From: an uncultured Chloroflexia bacterium
GTDB lineage: Bacteria; Chloroflexota; Limnocylindria; QHBO01
Length of the DNA: 64,000 nucleotides
Assembly: GCA_963797855.1 (NCBI GenBank)
Contig: CAWCQX010000011.1
Coordinates: forward strand, 24,887 to 88,886
Reading direction: 5' to 3'
A program made the translations under genes and the position numbers. Under the pieces are notes generated by a model. That model saw nothing but the letters and a program-made list of their open reading frames with translations, was not told the origin of the DNA and did not search any database. Below, piece after piece: positions 45,718 to 53,936 of the stretch; positions within the stretch are counted from its first letter, which is position 1; every line of letters begins with the position of its first letter.

Positions 45718-45917
45718 CGTAGCGGGATAGCACGAGCCCCGGTGCCCGCCCAATGACACCGGGGCTCGAAGGAGGGAGGGTGGAGGCAGAAACCCGAGGT
45801 GGATTTCTATCTCGCACCGATGAGGCTACGGAGCACGCCTAAACCCCGGGCTTGCCACACCTTAAGAAACCTGAACGTTCCCGGGATTCCGGCGAGGTCG
45901 TGGCAGAATGCGCCGCA

Positions 45918-47220
45918 ATGTCCGCTGCCCAGCGCCTGGCCGCCATCGTCATCGGCGTCATCGTCGTGATCGGGATCGCGGTCGTCGTCCTCAACCTTGC
46001 GGGCGATGGCGTCGCCGCCGATCCGAGCCCGCAGGCATCGGTCTCGCCGGCCGCGTCGCCCACCACGAGCGATGCGCCGACGGACGAGCCGTCACCGGCG
46101 GACGAGGACGACGTCCTGGCCGCCCTCGCCGAGATCGAGGAGCAGGTGATCGCCATCCGCGGCCTGCCCGCCGCCGACATCGGCGCGCCGGAGCTGCTCA
46201 CGCGCGACGAGCTCCAGGACGCGCTGCTCGCCCTCTTCGAGGAGAACTATCCGCCCGAGGAGCAGGCCGAGGACAACGCGTCGCTGCGGGCGCTCGGGCT
46301 GCTCGAGCCGGACCAGGACGTCGCCGCGCTCCAGCTCCAGCTGCTCGGCGACGTGGTCCTCGGCTTCTACGACGACGACGAGAAGCGGATGGTGGTCGTG
46401 ACCGACCAGGGCCTCGACGCCCTGGCGAAGTTCACGTACGCCCACGAGTACACCCACGCCCTGCAGGACGCCGCCTTCGGGATCGCCTCGCTGGACATCG
46501 AGGCAGAGGGCGAGGACGATCGCGCGCTGGCCCGCACCGCGCTGCTCGAGGGCGACGCGACCGTCGCGATGCTGGCATGGGCGTTCGCCAACCTGGAGCC
46601 GCAGGAGCTGGCGGAGATCACGAGCGCGCCCCAGCCCGACACGACCGGGATTCCGTCATGGCTCGTCGAGCAGATCGCCGTCTTTCCCTACAACGAGGGC
46701 TACCTCTGGGCGGGCTCGACTTGCCGGCGACCCGCTCAGCCCGGACTTCACCGAGCTCGATGCCGCGTACGCCGACCCTCCGGACTCGACCGAGCAGATC
46801 ATCGACGTCGAGAAGTGGGATCCGCGCGAAGCGCCGATCCCGGTCGACGGACCCGACCTCGCCGCCGCCTTCGGCGATGGCTGGACCGAGGTCGACGACA
46901 CCCCGATCGGCCAGGCGTTCCTGGAGGACATCCTCGTCTATCACGGGGTCGCGGGCGACGAAGCGCAGGCCGCAGCTGCGGGGTGGGGCGGCGACCAGGT
47001 CGTCGTCGCGACCGGCCCCGACGACGCCTTCGCCGTCGCATGGCGCCTGGTGTGGGACACGCCCGAGGATGCGGACGAGTTCGCCGATGCCTACAACTCG
47101 GTCATCTCCGGCCTCGGCTTCCCGGCATCGGTCACCCGGGTCGACGAGGACGAGGTGCTGATCGCCCACGGCAGCAGCCCGGATGTCCTCCGCCGCGCGA
47201 TCGAAGCGGCCAGCGACTGA
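45918..47220 (+). CDS. membrane-anchored putative zinc metallopeptidase (HExxH; frameshift near 46720)
   Basis: The N-terminus is MSAAQRLAAIVIGVIVVIGIAVVVLNL (TM), followed by a Pro/Ser/Asp linker. The motif FTYAHEYTHALQD (HExxH) is present. The C-terminal part (GDPLSPDFTELDAAYADPPDSTEQI...AAGWGGDQVVV...) lies in another frame and ends at TGA 47218-47220. Confidence 0.55.
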
Positions 47221-47225
47221 CGGTC

Positions 47226-48882
47226 CTACATCGAGTCCGGCGCGGAGATCCCCAGCAGCGCGAGGGCGTTGGACAGGACCGATCGGGTGGCGTCCACGAG
47301 GGCCAGCCGCGCGGCCGATAGCCCGGCGTCCTCGGTGAGCACCTTGCAGTCGCGGTAGAAGGCGCTGAACGCGCTGGCCAGCTCGTACGCATAGCGCGGA
47401 ACCTCGTGGGTCTCGCGCCGGTCGGCAGCCATGCCGACCGCATCGGGGAAGTCGAGAAGGTGGCGGACGAGCGCCCTGCTCGGACGGGTGCGTCAGCAGC
47501 TCCGCGGTCCGCGACGCGTCGGGCACGGCGCCGACCTCGTCGGCGTTCCGGAGAATCGACGAGGCGCGGGCGTGCGCGTACTGGACGTAGTAGACCGGGT
47601 TCTCGTGGCTCTGGCGCTTGGCGAGCTCGAGGTCGAAGTCGATGCCGCTCGTGAATGCGCGTGAGCTGAAGAACCAGCGCACCGGATCGGCGCCGACCTC
47701 GGCCATCAGGTCGTCGAGCGTCACGAACTCGCCCGATCGCTTGCTCATGCTCACGGCCTCGCCATCGCGAACGAAGCGCACCCAGGAATAGAGGAGGATG
47801 CGGACGGCCTCGGGGTCATGGCCGAGTGCGGTGGCGGCATGGAGGAGCCGGGCGACGGCGCCGTGGTGGTTCTCGCCCCAGACGTAGATCAGCTCGTCGA
47901 AGCCGCGGCTGAACTTCTCGCTGACATAGCCGATGTCCGCGGCGAAGTACGTTGGCTGGCCGTTGGATCGAAAGATCACGCGATCCCGATCGTCTCCGAA
48001 GGCCGTCGAGCGGAACCAGGTCGCGCCATCCTCTTCGAAGACGTATCCGGCTTCGCGAAGGCGCTCGACGCCGCGCTTCACCCAACCGTCGTCGTGGACG
48101 GAGCTCTCCGTCTTCCACACGTCGAAGTGGACTCCAAGGGCGTCGAGGCTGGCCTCGATCCCTTCCCGCTGCACCTCGGACGCCCACCGACCGTAGATCC
48201 AGTCGGCCTCGTCAGGCTCGGCAGCCTCGGCGTCGCGCACGACCTCGTCCGGGACCGATGCGGCCATCTCGCCGACGTAATCACCGCGGTAGCCGTCTTC
48301 GGGGAGCGGCGATCCCTGCCGGATCGCGCGCACCGATGCGCCGAGTGCCTTCACCTGCCCGCCGAAGTCGTTGAAGTAGTACTCGCGCGTCACGTCGTGG
48401 CCGGCGGCATCCAGGACGCGGCTCAGCACGTCGCCGACGAATGCGCCCCGCGCGTTGCCGACGTGGAGCGGGCCGGTCGGGTTGGCGCTGACGAACTCGA
48501 CGTTGATCCGCTGCGGCTGGGCTGCGGTCCCGCGGCCGTAGGCGGCGCCGGCGTCCCGGATCGGGCCGACCTGGGCGGCCACCCACGCGGGGTCGAGGCG
48601 GAAGTTCAGGAACCCCGGAGCGGCGACCGAGACCTCGGCCACCGAGACCGGTGGCTCGAAGTGCTCGAGCAGGGTCTCCGCGATCCGGATCGGCGCGGAA
48701 CGCGCGACCGGGGCCAGCTGCATCGCGACGTTGCTCGCCCAGTCGCCGTGATCGGGATTGGCGGGCCGCTCGAGGCCGATCGGTGGCAGATCCGTTCCCT
48801 GCCCGATCGCAAGTGCTCCGGACGATGCCGCGCGGTCGCGCGCATCGGCGATCGCTCGGGAGATCTCGGACCGGACGCTCAT
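47226..48882 (-). CDS. argS: arginine--tRNA ligase (frameshift near 47460)
   Basis: It reads INVEFVSANPTGPLHVGNARGA (HIGH-type motif)...YYFNDFGGQV...MSKRSGEFVTL (KMSK-type). The C-terminal anticodon-binding end comes from ORF 47226..47432, ending ...LLGISAPDSM. Confidence 0.92.
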
Positions 48883-49182: not shown

Positions 49183-50097
49183 CTATCGGTCTCGGGCCAG
49201 CCGGAGCTCGAGGGCCTGGTCGGGGGTGAAGTCCATGAGCCCGAGGGTGTCGGCCGCGACCTCCAGCAGTGCGCCCGTCGGCGCAAGACCGATGAGCTCG
49301 CAATGGTCGATGTCGGTTCCGGCTTCGCGCGCGAGCCGCCGAACCTCGCGAACGACCGTGGCGATGCCGGTGCGCTCCCAGTCGACGAGGTTCGTGCTGA
49401 CCTGCGCCATGGGCGGCATCCCCGGGTTCTCCAGGAGCACGCCCATCGCCTGCACGGCGGGCATCCCGCCGGAGCTCTCGCGGATCGCGGTGGCGATCTT
49501 GATGGCGACGGCCAGGTCGTCGGTCCGCAGGTTCATGTTGAACGCGATCAGCGGCTTGCGCGCGCCCACCGCGATCGCCCCGCCCCGCGGATGGACGCGA
49601 GCGGGGCCGAAGTCCGGGGCGCGCTCCGGCACCGCGCCGATCTCGTCGCGGATCGCCTCGTACTGGCCGCGGCGCACGTCGGCGAGACGCCGCCGGTCGG
49701 GCCGCAGCGCGGCCGCTCCGTAGAGATAGACGGGCAGGTCGAACCGCGTGGCGACCTGCTCCCCGAATCGCCGCGCGAGGTCGACGCACTCCTCGAGCCG
49801 GGTCGAGCCGAGTGGCACGAACGGGATGACGTCGACGGCACCGATGCGTGGGTGGGCCCCGGTGTGCTGTTCCATGTCGATCAGCTCGAGCGCGCGTCCG
49901 ACCGCCGCGGTCGCCGCCCTGACCACGGGCTCGGCGCTGCCCGCGAACGTGACGACGCTGCGGTTGTGGGTCGGGTCGAGCGAATGGTCGAGCACCGTCA
50001 CGCCGTCGATCTGACCGATGGCGTGGACGATCTCCTCGACCACCTCGGGTCGGCGTCCCTCGCTGAAGTTCGGGACGCACTCGATCAGTCCGGGCAT
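49183..50097 (-). CDS. glutamate formimidoyltransferase (FT domain only)
   Basis: The frame is intact from MPGLIECVPNFSEGRRPEVVEEI...HPRIGAVDVIPFVP, the canonical FTCD N-terminal motif. No cyclodeaminase domain is attached. Confidence 0.88.
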   Translation of the reverse strand: MPGLIECVPNFSEGRRPEVVEEIVHAIGQIDGVTVLDHSLDPTHNRSVVTFAGSAEPVVRAATAAVGRALELIDMEQHTGAHPRIGAVDVIPFVPLGSTRLEECVDLARRFGEQVATRFDLPVYLYGAAALRPDRRRLADVRRGQYEAIRDEIGAVPERAPDFGPARVHPRGGAIAVGARKPLIAFNMNLRTDDLAVAIKIATAIRESSGGMPAVQAMGVLLENPGMPPMAQVSTNLVDWERTGIATVVREVRRLAREAGTDIDHCELIGLAPTGALLEVAADTLGLMDFTPDQALELRLARDR

Positions 50098-50130
50098 GGT
50101 GTCGATCGTAACCCCTGCTACGCTCGGCCA

Positions 50131-50961
50131 ATGCCCGGCACCCTCTATCTCGTCGCCGTGCCGATCGGGAATCCTGACGATCTCAGCCCGCGTGCCCGGG
50201 ACATCCTGCGCGCGGCGGACGTGGTGGCCGCCGAGGACACGCGCCACTTCGCGACGCTGGCACGGCACCACGGCCTGGCACCGCGCGCGCTCAGCTATCA
50301 CGATCACAACGAGGTCGAGCGGACCGCTGCGCTGCTCGAGCGCCTTCGCGCCGGGGACGACGTCGCCCTCGTGAGCGATGCCGGCACGCCGCTCATCAGC
50401 GATCCGGGCTACCGGCTGGTCCGCGCCGCGATCGACGCGGGCATCGGCGTGACGAGCGTGCCGGGCGCGTCCGCGGTGACGACCGCGCTGGCGGCATCGG
50501 GCCTGCCTCCACATCCGTTCCGGTTCGTCGGCTTCCTGCCGCGGACGGCGGCGGCCCGTCGCGCGCTGCTGAAGAGCCTGGCCGGTGACCCGGCGACCCT
50601 GGTTGCCTTCGAAGCCCCTCGGCGCCTGACCGATGCGCTTCGCGACGCTCTCTCGACGCTCGGCGACCGGCCCGCCTGCCTGGCGCGGAACCTCACGAAG
50701 CCGCACGAGCGCTACCAGCGCGGCACGCTGTCGCAGCTGATCGCCGAGCTCGAGGCCGAGGGGGAGGTCCGGGGAGAGGCCACGATCGTGATCGGCGGCG
50801 CGACCTCCGCTCCGGACGACAGCGAGGAGGCCGAGGCCGACGCCCGGCTGCTGCTCGCGGGCGGTGCACCGGCACGCGCCGTCCAATCGCTGCTCGTCGA
50901 ACGGCGCGGGATGTCCCGGCGCGCCGCGTACGACCTCGTGCTCCGTCTGCGACGCGAATGA
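50131..50961 (+). CDS. rsmI: 16S rRNA (cytidine1402-2'-O)-methyltransferase
   Basis: The ORF is intact. It reads GTLYLVAVPIGNPDDLSPRARDILRAADVVAAEDTR...VSDAGTPLISDPGYRLV...PGASAVTTAL...FRFVGFLP. Confidence 0.9.
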   Translation: MPGTLYLVAVPIGNPDDLSPRARDILRAADVVAAEDTRHFATLARHHGLAPRALSYHDHNEVERTAALLERLRAGDDVALVSDAGTPLISDPGYRLVRAAIDAGIGVTSVPGASAVTTALAASGLPPHPFRFVGFLPRTAAARRALLKSLAGDPATLVAFEAPRRLTDALRDALSTLGDRPACLARNLTKPHERYQRGTLSQLIAELEAEGEVRGEATIVIGGATSAPDDSEEAEADARLLLAGGAPARAVQSLLVERRGMSRRAAYDLVLRLRRE

Positions 50962-51766
50962 TCGAGCCGATCGTCGACCGAGTGCTCCGCTCCACTCGCT
51001 ACCGCGACGTCGACCGCGCGCTGCTCGACCGGCTGGCCGCGGAAGAGCTGCCGAAGTCCCGGAACGTCGATGACGCCGTCAAGCGGGTGAAGCGCCGGCT
51101 GCACCAGGCGGTCGGCGCGTACCGCGGCGCGGGCGGCGGCGGATCCGCTGGCGACGGTCCGCGCAACCTGGGCCGGGGACCGCGAGGACGCGGCGTTCCG
51201 GGCGGCCTGCGCCGATGTGCATGCGGAGTCACGCGTCGACCGCCGAGCGGCTGCCGTACATCGAAGGGTTCTTCGCGCCGATCTGGGAGCTGACCGGCGG
51301 CGCCCCGCGAACGCTCCTCGACCTCGGCTGCGGGCTCGGGCCGCTGGCTCTGCCATGGATGGGCCTGTCGCCGGAAGCCACGTATCACGCCTGCGAGGTC
51401 GATCGGCGCTCGCTCGAGGTGGTGGATGCGTTTCTCGATCTGGTCGGACAGCCGCACGCGGTCCACGCGCGCGACCTCGTCGCCTCGGGCGGCCCGCCGA
51501 TCGCTGCCGATGTGGTCCTGCTCCTGAAGCTCGTCCCACTGCTCGACCGCCAGGATCCATCCGCGGCCGCGCGGCTGCTGGGCACTCTCGACGCCCGCCA
51601 CGCTGTCATCTCGTTTCCAACCAGCTCGCTCGGCGGCCGGCGACGTGGCATGGAGGCGACCTATCGGCGCCTGCTCGACGAGCTCGTCGCCGCCCTGGAG
51701 ATCGGCGACGTCCGCGAGGCATCGGTCCCGAACGAGCTCGTCTTCGTGGTGACGCCTCGTGGCTGA
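50958..51766 (+). CDS. FmrO/Rmt-family 16S rRNA (guanine1405-N7)-methyltransferase-like protein (frameshift between about 51140 and 51215)
   Basis: An ATGA overlap links it to rsmI. It reads STRYRDV...VKRVKRRLHQAVGAY, then HASTAERLPYIEGFF...LLDLGCGLGPLALPWMG...LLLKLVPLLDRQ...VISFPTSSLGGRRRGMEATY. These blocks match RmtB/ArmA-type enzymes as I remember them. Confidence 0.8.
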
Positions 51767-52838
51767 TCCGCTGGTCACCGGCCGCGGCACGCTCGCCGTT
51801 CCGGCCTTCCTCCCGGATGCGACGCGGGCCGGCGTGCGCGGGACGAGCAGCGAGGACCTCCGGGCGGTCGGGATCGAGGGCGTCGTCGTGAACGCCTTCC
51901 ATCTGCTCCGGCGTCCGGGCGCCCGGGTGGTGCAGGCCGCCGGCGGGATCCATCGGTTCATGGACTGGGATCGGCCGATCGTCAGCGACTCGGGCGGCTT
52001 CCAGATCTGGAGCCTGATCCGCCAGGATCCCAACCGCGGCGTGATCCGCGACAACGAGGTGATCTTCCGCGAGCCGTCGACCGGCGAGAAGTGGAACCTG
52101 ACCCCGGAGCGGATCGTGAACCTCCAGCTCCAGCTTGGCAGCGACGTCGTCGTCTGCCTCGACGACTGCACCGATGCGGAGTCGCCCGAGTCCGAGCAGG
52201 AGCGCTCCGTCGAGCGGACCGTGCGCTGGGCACGCCGCTGCCGCGAGGAGCTCGACAAGCAGGTCGCGCAGCGCGGTGGGGCCCCACCGCGGATCTTCGC
52301 CGTCGTCCAGGGCGGCGGGATCGAGGCGCTGCGACGGCAATGCGCGACCGCCCTGGCCGAGATCGGCTTCGATGGCTACGGCTTCGGCGGCTGGCCGCTC
52401 GCGGCCGACGGCACGCTGCTCGCCGATCCGATGCGCTGGGTCGTCGAGTCGCTCCCGCCCGAGGCTCCGAAGCACGCGCTCGGAGTCGGCCGGCCGGATC
52501 ACGTCGTCAACGCCTTCGCGCTCGGCTATTCGGTGTTCGACTGCGCGCTTCCGACCCGCGACGCTCGTCATGGCCGTCTCTACGCCTTTCGCGATGGCTG
52601 GTCCTCACGCCGGCCGGAGCCGGGCGACGACTTCTACCGCGCCGTCCGCATTCACGATCAGCAGTACCGGGTCGCGCACGGACCGATCGAGGACGGCTGT
52701 GACTGCCCGGTCTGCGCCCGTCACTCGGCGGCCTACCTGCATCACCTGTTCAAGGTCGGGGACACGTCGGCCGAACGGCTGGCGACCCTCCACAACCTGC
52801 GCTTCTACGTGCGCCTCTTCGCGCTGCTCCGCTCGTAG
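51759..52838 (+). CDS. tRNA-guanine transglycosylase (TGT) family protein, divergent substrate pocket
   Basis: The ORF is intact. The GTG start overlaps the upstream stop (GTGGCTGA). It reads VPAFLPDAT...NAFHLLRRPG...IVSDSGGFQIWSL...LDDCT...GFDGYGFGGW...LGVGRPDHV...FDCALPTRDARHG. The Zn site is CDCPVCARHSAAYLHHL. Confidence 0.8.
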   Translation: MADPLVTGRGTLAVPAFLPDATRAGVRGTSSEDLRAVGIEGVVVNAFHLLRRPGARVVQAAGGIHRFMDWDRPIVSDSGGFQIWSLIRQDPNRGVIRDNEVIFREPSTGEKWNLTPERIVNLQLQLGSDVVVCLDDCTDAESPESEQERSVERTVRWARRCREELDKQVAQRGGAPPRIFAVVQGGGIEALRRQCATALAEIGFDGYGFGGWPLAADGTLLADPMRWVVESLPPEAPKHALGVGRPDHVVNAFALGYSVFDCALPTRDARHGRLYAFRDGWSSRRPEPGDDFYRAVRIHDQQYRVAHGPIEDGCDCPVCARHSAAYLHHLFKVGDTSAERLATLHNLRFYVRLFALLRS

Positions 52839-52840
52839 CG

Positions 52841-53936
52841 TCAGGCGTGGGCGGCGGCCTGCGCGGCGTCCTCGCGACCGAGCGTGTCCGGGCTCACGTT
52901 TCGCGCACGAGCGAGGCGCTCGGTGAGCAGCTGCAGCGCGACGGCCGATGCGAGCAGCGAGCCAGCCATGGCAGGCACGCGTCCCGTGTGCGGCAAGACG
53001 ATGCGGGCGGCCGGTGTCTCGTCGGGATCGATCTCACCGGCAATCTCGTCGCCGATGATCGCGGCGGTTGGAACCGCGAGGGCCTTCGCGGCGGCGAGGA
53101 GCCGGTGCGCCCGAGCGAGGATCTCCGGAGAGCCGTCGGTCAGGACGACGACGAGCCCGGTCCAGCGCGTGACGGCGGCGAGGTGCCCGTGCAGGACGGT
53201 CTCGAGCTCGAGGGCGGTGGCGGGCTGGCGAGGTCCCTCGCTGACCTTGAGCGCAAGCTCGCGGGCGGTGATCGCATCGTGCCCGGCGCCGGCGACGATC
53301 AGCCGATCGGTTCCGGCCATCGCCGCCGCGATCTCGGCGGGGCCGTGAGCGTCCTGGCTGACGTCCAGGAGGGCTCGGATCGCGGCCGCGTCGAGCCGGG
53401 ACCTGCGCAGCTTCGCGGCCAGCGCGACGCCCACGACCAGCGGCGCCAGGTAGCCGATGGTGTGGCACCAGCTCTGGTCCTGCTCCTCGGTGAGGATCAC
53501 GTGGCCGGCGAGGGCGGCACCGGGCGATCCCGGTCCGACGGTGATCAGCGCCGTCGTCGCCCCGGCCGCCTGGGCGGCGGAGATCGCCTCGTTCGTCGCG
53601 TAGGTGCCGCCCTCGTGCGAGACCGCAATGAGCAGCCCGTCGCCGATCGGACGCTGGACGGCCTCGAGCGCCTGGACCGACCGAACCTCGCGGCCGGCGG
53701 GCAGGTCGAGCGCGTCGGACACGAGGCCGTGCGATCGCCATCGCGGCGTGCTCGGACGTCCCGCAGCCGGTCGTGACGACCGGTCGCCCGGCATCGATCG
53801 CGGCGCGGATCTCGCTCGCGAGCGCATCGAGCGTCGGATCCTTGGCCAGCCGTCGGACGAGGCGCTCGGCGACCGCGGGCTCGGCGGCGATCATCTCGCT
53901 CATGACGTACGGCGGGCGCGATCGGAACGGCGGCAT
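52841..53936 (-). CDS. SIS-domain sugar isomerase/aminotransferase-like protein (GlmS C-terminal/FrlB-like; frameshift near 53720)
   Basis: The N-terminus reads MSEMIAAEPAVAERL...RPVVTTGCGTSEHAA. It continues LLIAVSHEGGTYATNEAISAAQAAGATTALIT...RLIVAGAGHDAITARELALKVSEG in ORF 52841..53827. Confidence 0.7.

What the first reader, a model, noticed from the sequence alone, without database searches (positions are those of the whole stretch)
50131..52838. Translationally coupled operon: RsmI (16S C1402) - FmrO/Rmt-type methyltransferase (16S G1405) - divergent TGT-family enzyme
The three genes overlap at their junctions: ATGA at 50958-50961 and GTGGCTGA at 51759-51766.

RsmI 2'-O-methylates C1402 in helix 44 of 16S rRNA. 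The FmrO/Rmt/ArmA family N7-methylates G1405, three nucleotides away in the same helix. Pairing the two in one operon suggests that the G1405 enzyme here is a housekeeping decoding-centre modification and not an acquired resistance gene.

The third partner is a base-exchanging transglycosylase homologue. TGT enzymes replace guanine with 7-deazaguanine derivatives, so they also alter the N7 position. I am not aware of a described functional link between these three activities. A TGT paralogue acting on rRNA, or on a guanine whose N7 status matters, is a speculative but testable idea.
Basis: partly seen in the sequence, partly recalled or inferred. Interest (0 to 1): 0.62.

Follow-up and report, generated by a model that had tools for sequence, protein, structure and literature searches.

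The report
Ribosome-methylase operon with odd Tgt
An uncultured soil Chloroflexota bacterium carries a tightly overlapping operon of two ribosome decoding-site methylases plus an altered copy of the tRNA base-swapping enzyme Tgt, and because this pairing recurs (sometimes as one fused protein) across many phyla and beside hospital aminoglycoside-resistance genes, the altered Tgt may swap a base in ribosomal RNA, which has not been described.

Summary
However, the middle gene (fmrO/rmt) is not one open frame in this assembly. It is broken by two +1 frame breaks, most likely long-read assembly errors, because essential argS and the genome's other tgt are broken too and more than 30 relatives have intact fmrO.

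The order ftcD<-|rsmI-fmrO-tgtP|<-SIS is kept in six genera of one Limnocylindria family. FmrO and the Tgt paralogue occur in exactly the same six genera.

tgtP is not the housekeeping tgt, which lies elsewhere beside queA. It belongs to a deep, separate "GGWP" clade. That clade keeps every catalytic, zinc and RNA-binding residue but has rebuilt the element that reads position 7 of the guanine.

Outside this class, GGWP-type Tgt sat next to an Rmt in 18 of 24 loci, against 0 of 55 for canonical tgt. It is fused to FmrO or RsmI in some proteins, and it flanks rmtG, rmtB2 and rmtD2 on clinical plasmids.

Most carriers lack QueC, so a self-made 7-deazaguanine is an unlikely substrate.

Best reading: a decoding-centre (helix 44) modification module in which the Tgt variant acts on G1405 or m7G1405. 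The chemistry is unproven.

This scan found the same pair earlier in other genomes. The papers I could search mention it only as genetic context.

The parts
50131..50961 (+). rsmI, 16S rRNA C1402 2'-O-methyltransferase; the only copy in the genome
   Evidence: TIGR00096 212.5 bits (cut-off 167.9) and PF00590. Single copy in G000, G002, G017, G071 and G070.
50958..50961 (+). ATGA overlap of the rsmI stop and the fmrO start
   Evidence: Read directly. The same 4-nt overlap occurs in 25 related loci.
50958..51766 (+). fmrO/rmt-family 16S rRNA G1405 N7-methyltransferase homologue, broken into three frames in this assembly
   Evidence: PF07091: 18.8 bits for the N-terminal piece and 147.3 bits for the C-terminal piece. 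The read-through protein scores 195 bits over positions 2-253 of 254 of NF000466, below the 250 cut-off. The best solved relative of an intact orthologue is Sgm, E 1.7e-40. Orthologues are intact in more than 30 relatives.
51129..51142 (+). First frame break in fmrO (frame 0 to frame 1), inside a G/C run
   Evidence: Three-frame translation compared with intact orthologues.
51217..51223 (+). Second frame break in fmrO (frame 1 to frame 2), just before the conserved HASTxERL motif
   Evidence: Three-frame translation compared with intact orthologues.
51759..51766 (+). GTGGCTGA overlap of the tgtP start and the fmrO stop
   Evidence: Read directly. The same 8-nt overlap occurs in 39 of 42 loci of six genera.
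51759..52838 (+). tgtP, a GGWP-type TGT paralogue (359 aa) with intact catalytic Asp residues and zinc site and a rebuilt position-7 pocket
   Evidence: PF01702 318 bits. Residue mapping onto Z. mobilis TGT. Placed in the GGWP clade of the tree with support 100/99. AlphaFold model pLDDT 94, TM 0.88 to Z. mobilis TGT.

Best explanation
This is a vertically inherited, translationally coupled rsmI-fmrO-tgtP operon of one clade of Limnocylindria (Chloroflexota). It encodes a team that modifies the decoding centre (helix 44) of 16S rRNA.

- **RsmI** makes Cm1402.
- **FmrO/Rmt** makes m7G1405.
- **tgtP** is a catalytically competent RNA-guanine transglycosylase of a distinct, ancient 'GGWP' clade.

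The GGWP clade keeps the nucleophile, the general base, the guanine-edge readers, the RNA-phosphate arginines and the zinc site. It has replaced the Leu231-Ala232/Glu235 'peptide switch' that reads N7/C7 of the base with Trp-Pro.

I infer that tgtP works on the same rRNA site as its partner. My preferred order is that Rmt methylates N7 of G1405 and tgtP then takes the 7-substituted, labile base out and puts another guanine-like base in. The order of the two steps and the identity of the incoming base are not shown.

The two frame breaks in fmrO in this window are most likely assembly errors and not gene decay.

**Shown:** gene identities, synteny, co-occurrence, fusions, residue pattern.
**Inferred:** rRNA target, position 1405, order of steps.
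For: **Conservation in the lineage**
- Synteny is kept in 29 loci of the genus and in five further genera.
- FmrO and tgtP occur in exactly the same six genera of 22.
- The 8-nt overlap is kept in 39 of 42 loci.
- dN/dS is 0.10-0.14 for tgtP and 0.18-0.30 for fmrO.

**Linkage outside the class**
- Rmt sits beside 18 of 24 GGWP-type TGT genes against 0 of 55 canonical tgt genes. RsmI sits beside 8 of 24 against 0 of 55.
- RsmF-type genes lie in 9 and RsmE-type genes in 5 of 31 contexts.
- Two fusion proteins exist: TGT-FmrO (P0129) and RsmI-TGT (P0148).
- On plasmids, tgt of this clade lies next to rmtG (with rsmH), rmtB2 and rmtD2.

**The enzyme itself**
- In the tree, canonical and GGWP clades separate at 100/100 and 100/99.
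- D102, D156, Q203, G229/G230, D280, R286, R289 and H349 are invariant in both groups. The zinc cysteines are kept in at least 48 of 52 GGWP rows (C320 in 48 of 52).
- V45D, L231W/Y, A/S232P, loss of G234/E235 and M260L discriminate the groups in 47-52 of 52 rows against 0 of 24.

**Substrate supply**
- QueC is found in only 8 of 25 carriers outside the class and in 0 of 5 Limnocylindria.
- Canonical tgt with queA sits elsewhere in the genome.

**Frame breaks are errors**
- Essential argS is also shifted, and so is the own canonical tgt.
- The break positions differ in each long-read MAG.
Against: - No biochemical or RNA data exist, and nothing here shows that tgtP touches rRNA.
- tgtP still passes the curated Tgt(34) cut-off and keeps the residues that canonical TGT uses for tRNA.
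- Four very small genomes have only this type of TGT, so there it could be their tRNA enzyme.
- Six of 24 GGWP loci showed no Rmt within 4 kb.
- Mobilised Rmt enzymes are known to confer resistance without any tgt, so Rmt does not need the partner. This rests on established knowledge and was not tested here.
- A writer followed by removal of its own mark has no obvious benefit unless the incoming base is something new.
- The 16S segment 1390-1413 is identical in genomes with and without the module, so there is no rRNA covariation to point at the site.
- Reads could not be inspected, so a true frameshift in this strain is not excluded.
Confidence: 0.5

Rival explanations
1. tgtP is simply a second tRNA-guanine transglycosylase, for another tRNA position or for a salvaged base. 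It shares an operon with rRNA methylases only because translation-apparatus modification genes often cluster.
For: - It passes TIGR00430 (308.5 against 306.75).
- Sources annotate it as Tgt.
- All catalytic and RNA-binding residues are kept.
- Four small genomes have only this type.
- These Limnocylindria lack queC and queF and must salvage precursors, which could favour a second enzyme with different base specificity.
Against: - Linkage to Rmt is strict: 18 of 24 against 0 of 55.
- Fusions to FmrO and RsmI exist.
- Neighbours are consistently 16S helix-44 enzymes, not tRNA enzymes.
- It coexists with canonical tgt in 21 of 25 carriers and in every genome of the six Limnocylindria genera scored that was not cut at a contig end.
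- queA stays with the other copy.
- The preQ1-reading peptide switch and Glu235 are gone.
Confidence: 0.25
2. In this particular genome the module is decaying. fmrO is a true pseudogene with two frameshifts, and only rsmI and tgtP remain functional.
For: - There are two frame breaks within about 100 nt.
- Two near relatives, G010 and G022, also show a broken fmrO.
Against: - Essential argS, 3 kb away, is also frame-broken, and so is the canonical tgt.
- The breaks lie at different places in G000, G010, G022 and G029, all few-contig MAGs.
- The closest relatives G177, G088 and G211 have intact genes.
- dN/dS shows purifying selection.
Confidence: 0.12
3. The fmrO-tgtP pair is an acquired aminoglycoside-resistance cassette, not part of normal ribosome biogenesis. 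tgtP is a passenger or accessory of that cassette.
For: - The same kind of pair sits beside rmtG, rmtB2 and rmtD2 on plasmids between IS91/ISCR-type and IS26 elements.
- The pair is limited to 6 of 22 genera.
- A near relative, g18, has rsmI (76% identity) followed directly by hutU, without the pair.
Against: - No transposase or integrase lies near the operon.
- G+C equals the host's.
- Locus and overlaps are identical across six genera.
- tgtP is the most conserved of the three genes, at 82-93% within the genus, which is unlike a passenger.
Confidence: 0.13

Closest known systems
Bacterial tRNA-guanine(34) transglycosylase Tgt (Z. mobilis / E. coli type; TIGR00430, PF01702, EC 2.4.2.29)
   Same: - Same fold: AlphaFold model TM 0.88 and rmsd 2.1 A to Z. 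mobilis TGT.
- Same catalytic Asp102, Asp156 and Asp280, Gln203, Gly229/230, Arg286/289 and Cys3His zinc site.
- So the same covalent base-exchange chemistry is expected.
   Different: - It belongs to a separate deep clade.
- Leu231-Ala232-Val233-Gly234-Glu235 is replaced by Trp-Pro-Leu-Ala-Ala.
- Other changes are Val45Asp, Met260Leu and Lys52Arg, plus a 14-residue insert after the Asp280 strand.
- It is not next to queA.
- It is wedded to Rmt/RsmI instead.
tgt-rmt contexts of acquired 16S-RMTases: rsmH-tgt-rmtG on pKP13f, tgt-rmtD2, and tgt-(metallophosphoesterase)-rmtB2
   Same: - The plasmid tgt genes are 45-49% identical to tgtP, against about 36% for canonical tgt.
- They fall in the GGWP clade.
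- They directly adjoin a G1405 methyltransferase.
- The literature notes this only as genetic context (PMC9311965, PMC3904158).
   Different: - The gene order there is tgt then rmt. Here it is rmt then tgt, with rsmI first.
- There the pair is flanked by IS elements. Here it is chromosomal and vertically inherited.
Sgm / FmrO / Rmt / ArmA family of 16S rRNA (guanine1405-N7)-methyltransferases
   Same: - Full-length match to PF07091 and NF000466.
- Sgm is the best solved relative of an intact orthologue, E 1.7e-40.
- The HASTxERL and DLGCG motifs are present.
   Different: - The score (195 bits) is below NCBI's equivalog cut-off of 250.
- The organism is not known to be an aminoglycoside producer.
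- The gene is always coupled to a TGT paralogue.
Eukaryotic QTRT1/QTRT2 (a catalytic TGT plus a non-catalytic paralogue)
   Same: Two TGT-family proteins in one organism.
   Different: - tgtP keeps all catalytic residues.
- It occurs alone in some genomes.
- A role as a dead scaffold subunit is therefore unlikely.

Membership tests
Bacterial Tgt, tRNA guanosine(34) transglycosylase (TIGR00430) | Score over the curated equivalog cut-off | tested here: met
   308.5 bits against a cut-off of 306.75; it passes only marginally.
Bacterial Tgt, tRNA guanosine(34) transglycosylase (TIGR00430) | Catalytic Asp102 and Asp280, substrate Asp156, Gln203, Gly230, and the Cys318/320/323/His349 zinc site | tested here: met
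   All are present in the window protein and in all 9 Limnocylindria rows.
Bacterial Tgt, tRNA guanosine(34) transglycosylase (TIGR00430) | Leu231/Ala(Ser)232 peptide switch with Gly234-Glu235 that reads N7 of guanine or the aminomethyl group of preQ1 | tested here: not met
   The window has W-P-L-A-A. In the GGWP clade, W/Y231 occurs in 52 of 52 rows, P232 in 49 of 52, G234 in 0 of 52 and E235 in 8 of 52. In canonical rows G234 and E235 each occur in 24 of 24.
Bacterial Tgt, tRNA guanosine(34) transglycosylase (TIGR00430) | Placement inside the canonical Tgt clade | tested here: not met
   In the maximum-likelihood tree the 24 canonical rows sit on one side (100/100). tgtP sits on the other side with 51 more GGWP-type rows (100/99).
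Bacterial Tgt, tRNA guanosine(34) transglycosylase (TIGR00430) | Queuosine-pathway context (queA-tgt) | tested here: not met
   queA lies within about 1-2 kb of the other, canonical tgt copy in G061, G002, G071, G017 and G070. It is not beside tgtP.
Bacterial Tgt, tRNA guanosine(34) transglycosylase (TIGR00430) | Exchanges G34 of tRNA for preQ1 | not testable with these tools
   Needs an enzyme assay or complementation.
GGWP-type, Rmt-linked TGT paralogue (unnamed clade) | G[FY]GG[WY]P motif together with Asp45 | tested here: met
   The window has GFGGWPL and PDATR. D45 occurs in 52 of 52 GGWP rows.
GGWP-type, Rmt-linked TGT paralogue (unnamed clade) | Immediately adjacent or fused to an FmrO/Rmt gene | tested here: met
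   8-nt overlap with fmrO here. Adjacent in 18 of 24 loci elsewhere, and one TGT-FmrO fusion exists.
FmrO/Rmt 16S rRNA (guanine1405-N7)-methyltransferase | Pfam PF07091 over the gathering score | tested here: met
   147.3 bits for the C-terminal piece (cut-off 27).
FmrO/Rmt 16S rRNA (guanine1405-N7)-methyltransferase | NCBIfam NF000466 equivalog cut-off (250 bits) | tested here: not met
   195 bits for the read-through window protein and 194 bits for the intact orthologue of G088.
FmrO/Rmt 16S rRNA (guanine1405-N7)-methyltransferase | One uninterrupted reading frame | tested here: not met
   Two frame breaks in this assembly. The gene is intact in more than 30 relatives. The breaks are probably assembly errors.
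FmrO/Rmt 16S rRNA (guanine1405-N7)-methyltransferase | Produces m7G1405 and aminoglycoside resistance | not testable with these tools
   Needs rRNA analysis or expression in a laboratory strain.
RsmI (16S C1402 2'-O-methyltransferase) | TIGR00096 over the cut-off, and the sole copy in the genome | tested here: met
   212.5 bits against 167.9. One copy in each of 5 genomes.
DpdA (DNA 7-deazaguanine transglycosylase) | NF041059 over the cut-off, with dpd neighbours | tested here: not met
   17.5 bits against a cut-off of 200. No dpd genes are nearby.
Archaeosine TGT (TIGR00432) | Score over the cut-off | tested here: not met
   99.5 bits against a cut-off of 350.

The most novel reading that the evidence does not exclude
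tgtP catalyses the first known base exchange in ribosomal RNA. Its Rmt partner methylates N7 of G1405, which activates the glycosidic bond. The GGWP-type transglycosylase has a pocket with no donor for an N7 lone pair and a Trp next to position 7. It removes 7-methylguanine and installs another guanine-like base at the aminoglycoside-binding site. The clinical rmt genes would then be fragments of this two-step pathway.
Probability: 0.3. Interest if true: 0.92.

Novelty: new variant of a known kind. Interest (0 to 1): 0.72.

Why it matters
- If the Tgt variant acts on 16S rRNA, it would extend enzymatic base exchange from tRNA and DNA to the ribosome. So far it is known only for tRNA (Tgt, ArcTGT) and DNA (DpdA).
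- It would add a new kind of modification at the site where aminoglycosides bind.
- It would also explain why several acquired 16S-RMTase genes (rmtG, rmtD2, rmtB2) arrive on plasmids with a 'tgt' gene that annotation pipelines label as ordinary Tgt. That points to the environmental modules these resistance genes came from.
- In practice, hundreds of database entries named 'tRNA guanosine(34) transglycosylase' are probably mis-assigned.
- The hypothesis is directly testable with purified proteins and 30S subunits.

Tried and rejected
- **Programmed frameshift in fmrO: rejected.** There are two breaks. Other long-read MAGs break at different positions, and most relatives are intact.
- **DpdA or archaeosine-type TGT: rejected** on the scores.
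- **QTRT2-like inactive scaffold: rejected**, because the catalytic residues are kept.
- **Recent horizontal acquisition in this genome:** no G+C deviation and no mobile genes, though an old acquisition by the clade's ancestor remains possible.
- **rRNA covariation:** the 16S segment 1390-1413 is identical in genomes with (G108, G211) and without (G061, G063) the module. It is uninformative.
- **Convergent SIS gene as part of the module: rejected.** It does not recur in the contexts from other phyla.
- **Sigma-70 promoter or intrinsic terminator around the operon:** none found, and none expected at this G+C.
- **Literature:** eight full-text searches found no paper proposing a functional tgt-rmt link.
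- **Own 16S gene:** the G000 assembly has no match, so the organism's own helix 44 could not be read.
Full report
**What is in the window**

The window is G000:C11:24887-88886 of a 1.43-Mb, 13-contig, 55%-complete MAG with 71% G+C. Sources name its close relatives Candidatus Limnocylindria, phylum Chloroflexota.

On the plus strand lie three genes:
- rsmI, 50131-50961. TIGR00096 scores 212.5 bits against a cut-off of 167.9.
- An FmrO/Rmt-family gene, 50958-51766.
- A TGT-family gene, 51759-52838. PF01702 scores 318 bits. TIGR00430 scores 308.5 against a cut-off of 306.75.

Upstream and divergent is ftcD (49186-50097, minus strand). Downstream and convergent is a SIS-domain gene (52841-53827, minus strand), followed by hutU.

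The middle gene is not one open frame. Its span of 809 nt is 3n+2. The protein is recovered only by reading frame 0 to about 51129-51142, frame 1 to about 51217-51223, and frame 2 from there on.

Intact orthologues of 267-268 aa match all three pieces in order. I read the breaks as assembly errors for these reasons:
- Essential, single-copy argS, 3 kb upstream, is also frame-shifted.
- The genome's other tgt is split in two frames.
- Broken fmrO copies occur only in few-contig MAGs (G000, G010, G022, G029), and each breaks at a different place.
- The nearest relatives G177, G088 and G211 are intact.

A real pseudogene therefore keeps about 0.1 probability.

The read-through protein scores 195 bits over the full NF000466 Rmt model, below the 250 equivalog cut-off. 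The best solved relative of an intact orthologue (G088) is Sgm.

**Conservation in the lineage**

- The order ftcD<-|rsmI-fmrO-tgtP|<-SIS is present in all 29 informative loci of the genus. It is also present in 12 loci from five more genera of the same family.
- PF07091 (FmrO) is found in 36 of 38 genomes of genus g1, 7 of 7 of g21 and 7 of 8 of g22. It is also in the single genomes of g28, g29 and g34, and in none of the other 16 genera of the family.
- It is found in none of 24 genomes of the other families of the class.
- A TGT with at least 70% identity to tgtP occurs in exactly the same six genera. Below that, identity drops straight to about 40%, which is the canonical Tgt.
- The fmrO/tgtP 8-nt overlap is kept in 39 of 42 loci and the rsmI/fmrO 4-nt overlap in 25.
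- rsmI is single-copy.
- tgtP is the most conserved of the three genes, at 82-93% within the genus. RsmI is at 70-88% and the FmrO C-terminal part at 55-79%.
- dN/dS is 0.10-0.14 for tgtP and 0.18-0.30 for fmrO.
- G+C of the three genes equals the host's.
- In genus g18, rsmI (76% identical) is followed directly by hutU, and fmrO, tgtP and the SIS gene are missing there.

**What tgtP is**

It is a paralogue. The canonical tgt lies at C13:32195-33233. In relatives the canonical copy sits within about 1-2 kb of queA.

I compared tgtP with one representative of every 50%-identity protein cluster. This gave a graded series of relatives at 42-60% identity. All carry G[FY]GG[WY]P where canonical enzymes have GGL[AS]VGE.

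A maximum-likelihood tree of 77 proteins puts 24 canonical Tgt on one side (100/100). On the other side (100/99) are 52 GGWP-type proteins. These include the Limnocylindria clade, three plasmid tgt genes and both fusion proteins.

I mapped the alignment onto Z. mobilis numbering, using the PDB sequence printed.
- D102, S103, G104, G105, Q107, D156, Q203, G229, G230, D280, P284, T285, R286, R289 and H349 are invariant in both groups.
- The zinc cysteines (318, 320, 323) are kept in at least 48 of 52 GGWP rows and 23 of 24 canonical rows.

The discriminating changes are (GGWP rows of 52 / canonical rows of 24):

| Change | GGWP clade | Canonical |
|---|---|---|
| V45D | 52 | 0 |
| L231W/Y | 52 | 0 |
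| A/S232P | 49 | 0 |
| G234 kept | 0 | 24 |
| E235 kept | 8 | 24 |
| M260L | 47 | 0 |
| K52R | 47 | 1 |

The AlphaFold model has pLDDT 94 and pTM 0.91, and superposes on Z. mobilis TGT with TM 0.88.

From published TGT structural work I recall two roles for the 231/232 peptide. This is recalled, not tested here. Its NH reads N7 of the leaving guanine. When flipped with help from Glu235, its C=O reads the aminomethyl group of preQ1. A proline at 232 removes that NH.

So the chemistry (covalent ribosyl-Asp280 intermediate) and the recognition of the guanine Watson-Crick edge look intact. The part of the pocket that faces position 7 is the part that has been rebuilt.

**Linkage beyond this lineage**

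A scan of one genome per GTDB species returned 80 loci outside Limnocylindria.
- 24 loci carry a GGWP-type TGT. They come from Chloroflexota, Armatimonadota, Latescibacterota, Bacillota, Pseudomonadota, WWE3 and others.
- 18 of the 24 have an Rmt/FmrO gene directly downstream and 8 have rsmI.
- None of 55 canonical tgt loci has either.

Clustering the neighbours also brought out RsmF-type genes (PF01189 plus PF17125) in 9 contexts and RsmE-type genes (PF04452) in 5 of 31 contexts. By established knowledge of the E. coli enzymes, these modify C1407 and U1498, which are also in the decoding centre.

Two Rosetta-stone proteins exist: P0129 is TGT plus FmrO, and P0148 is RsmI plus TGT.

In PLSDB, the only plasmid TGT genes with more than 44% identity to tgtP sit beside resistance genes:
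- rsmH-tgt-rmtG on pKP13f
- tgt-(metallophosphoesterase)-rmtB2
- tgt-rmtD2

The lead to the plasmids came from earlier notes of this scan, and I verified it here. Elsewhere the usual order is tgt then rmt. The Limnocylindria order, rmt then tgt, is a permuted variant.

**Which base?**

- Five Limnocylindria genomes at least 94% complete have queA and canonical tgt but no queC and no queF (TIGR03139). They must salvage queuosine precursors.
- Among 25 carriers from other phyla, QueC was found in only 8.
- 21 of these 25 also have a canonical tgt. Four very small genomes have only the GGWP type.

The paralogue is therefore not tied to de novo 7-deazaguanine synthesis.

**Mechanism I commit to**

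I rate the functional module acting on 16S helix 44 at about 0.55-0.6. Within that, the target is most likely position 1405, the only G in the 1402-1407 stretch addressed by RsmI/RsmH, Rmt and RsmF.

My preferred order is methylation of N7 by Rmt followed by exchange of the 7-substituted base by tgtP. I give this specific order about 0.3. The reasons are:
- The pocket no longer offers a donor to an N7 lone pair.
- m7G is a good leaving group.
- The operon supplies its own methyl donor enzyme.
- A fused TGT-FmrO points to consecutive steps on one substrate.

The incoming base is unknown. If it were plain guanine the pair would be a writer-eraser couple, which the fusions make less attractive.

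Against all of this:
- There are no experimental data.
- tgtP still looks tRNA-competent.
- Mobilised Rmt enzymes work without tgt.
- 16S positions 1390-1413 are identical with and without the module.

**Known or new?**

Full-text searches found the tgt-rmt neighbourhood mentioned only as genetic context:
- 'a putative tRNA ribosyltransferase CDS' upstream of rmtG (PMC3904158).

No paper proposes a functional link. This scan has flagged the same pairing in at least nine other genomes. The present window adds:
- a permuted gene order
- a zinc-site-retaining member
- a clean six-genus phyletic pattern
- the QueC-independence result

I file tgtP as a new variant of a known kind (TGT family). It should not be annotated as Tgt(34), because three defining features tested here are not met.

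Noticed in passing
window 47150-47500 (- strand): argS (arginyl-tRNA synthetase, ORF 46618-48882) changes frame after '...LLTHPSEQ'. Its true C-terminus (DALR domain, '...ALALLGISAPDSM*') is in another frame. A broken essential gene indicates indel errors in this assembly.
   Followed up: yes
G000:C13:32195-33233 (-), loci L002/L003: The genome's canonical tgt is also split into two frames (profile positions 3-244 and 235-349).
   Followed up: partly
Limnocylindria genomes G002, G017, G071, G070, G061: queA and canonical tgt are present, but queC and queF (TIGR03139) were not found in genomes 94-97% complete. The family appears to depend on salvaged preQ1/queuine precursors. Only these two biosynthesis models were tested.
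   Followed up: partly
class-level search, family f2: None of 92 genomes of a sister family of the class has any TGT-family gene at E<=1e-20. This looks like complete loss of queuosine insertion in that family.
   Followed up: no
G063:C2 (L046): RsmI identity to the window is bimodal across the family: 61-76% in g18, g21 and g22, but 44-46% in g17, g19, g20 and g26. ArgS is 61-65% in g17, g18, g21 and g22 alike. The rsmI of the module-bearing clade may be a xenologue that arrived with the module. g18 then looks like a secondary loss of fmrO-tgtP.
   Followed up: partly
proteins P0228, P0253, P0256, P0263: Canonical-type TGT proteins of 670-736 aa are fused to a C-terminal Methyltransf_30 (MnmC-like) domain. 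This is a different TGT fusion, unrelated to the finding.
   Followed up: no
protein P0123: A GGWP-type TGT carries an insert of about 80 residues with an internal direct repeat ('GAASxEExTVTVSRETVTDQ' twice) between the barrel strands.
   Followed up: no
window 45852-47321 (+): This ORF starts as a plausible secreted/metalloprotease-like protein (HEYTH motif), then turns into Arg/Pro-rich nonsense after '...EGYLWAGS'. It is probably another frame break.
   Followed up: no
window 50098-50130: Only 33 bp separate the divergent start codons of ftcD and rsmI. No sigma-70-like promoter was found, so the promoters must lie inside the neighbouring coding regions or be of another type.
   Followed up: partly
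L056 (Providencia plasmid p12100-NDM): A metallophosphoesterase gene sits between the GGWP-type tgt and rmtB2. It did not recur in the other contexts examined.
   Followed up: no
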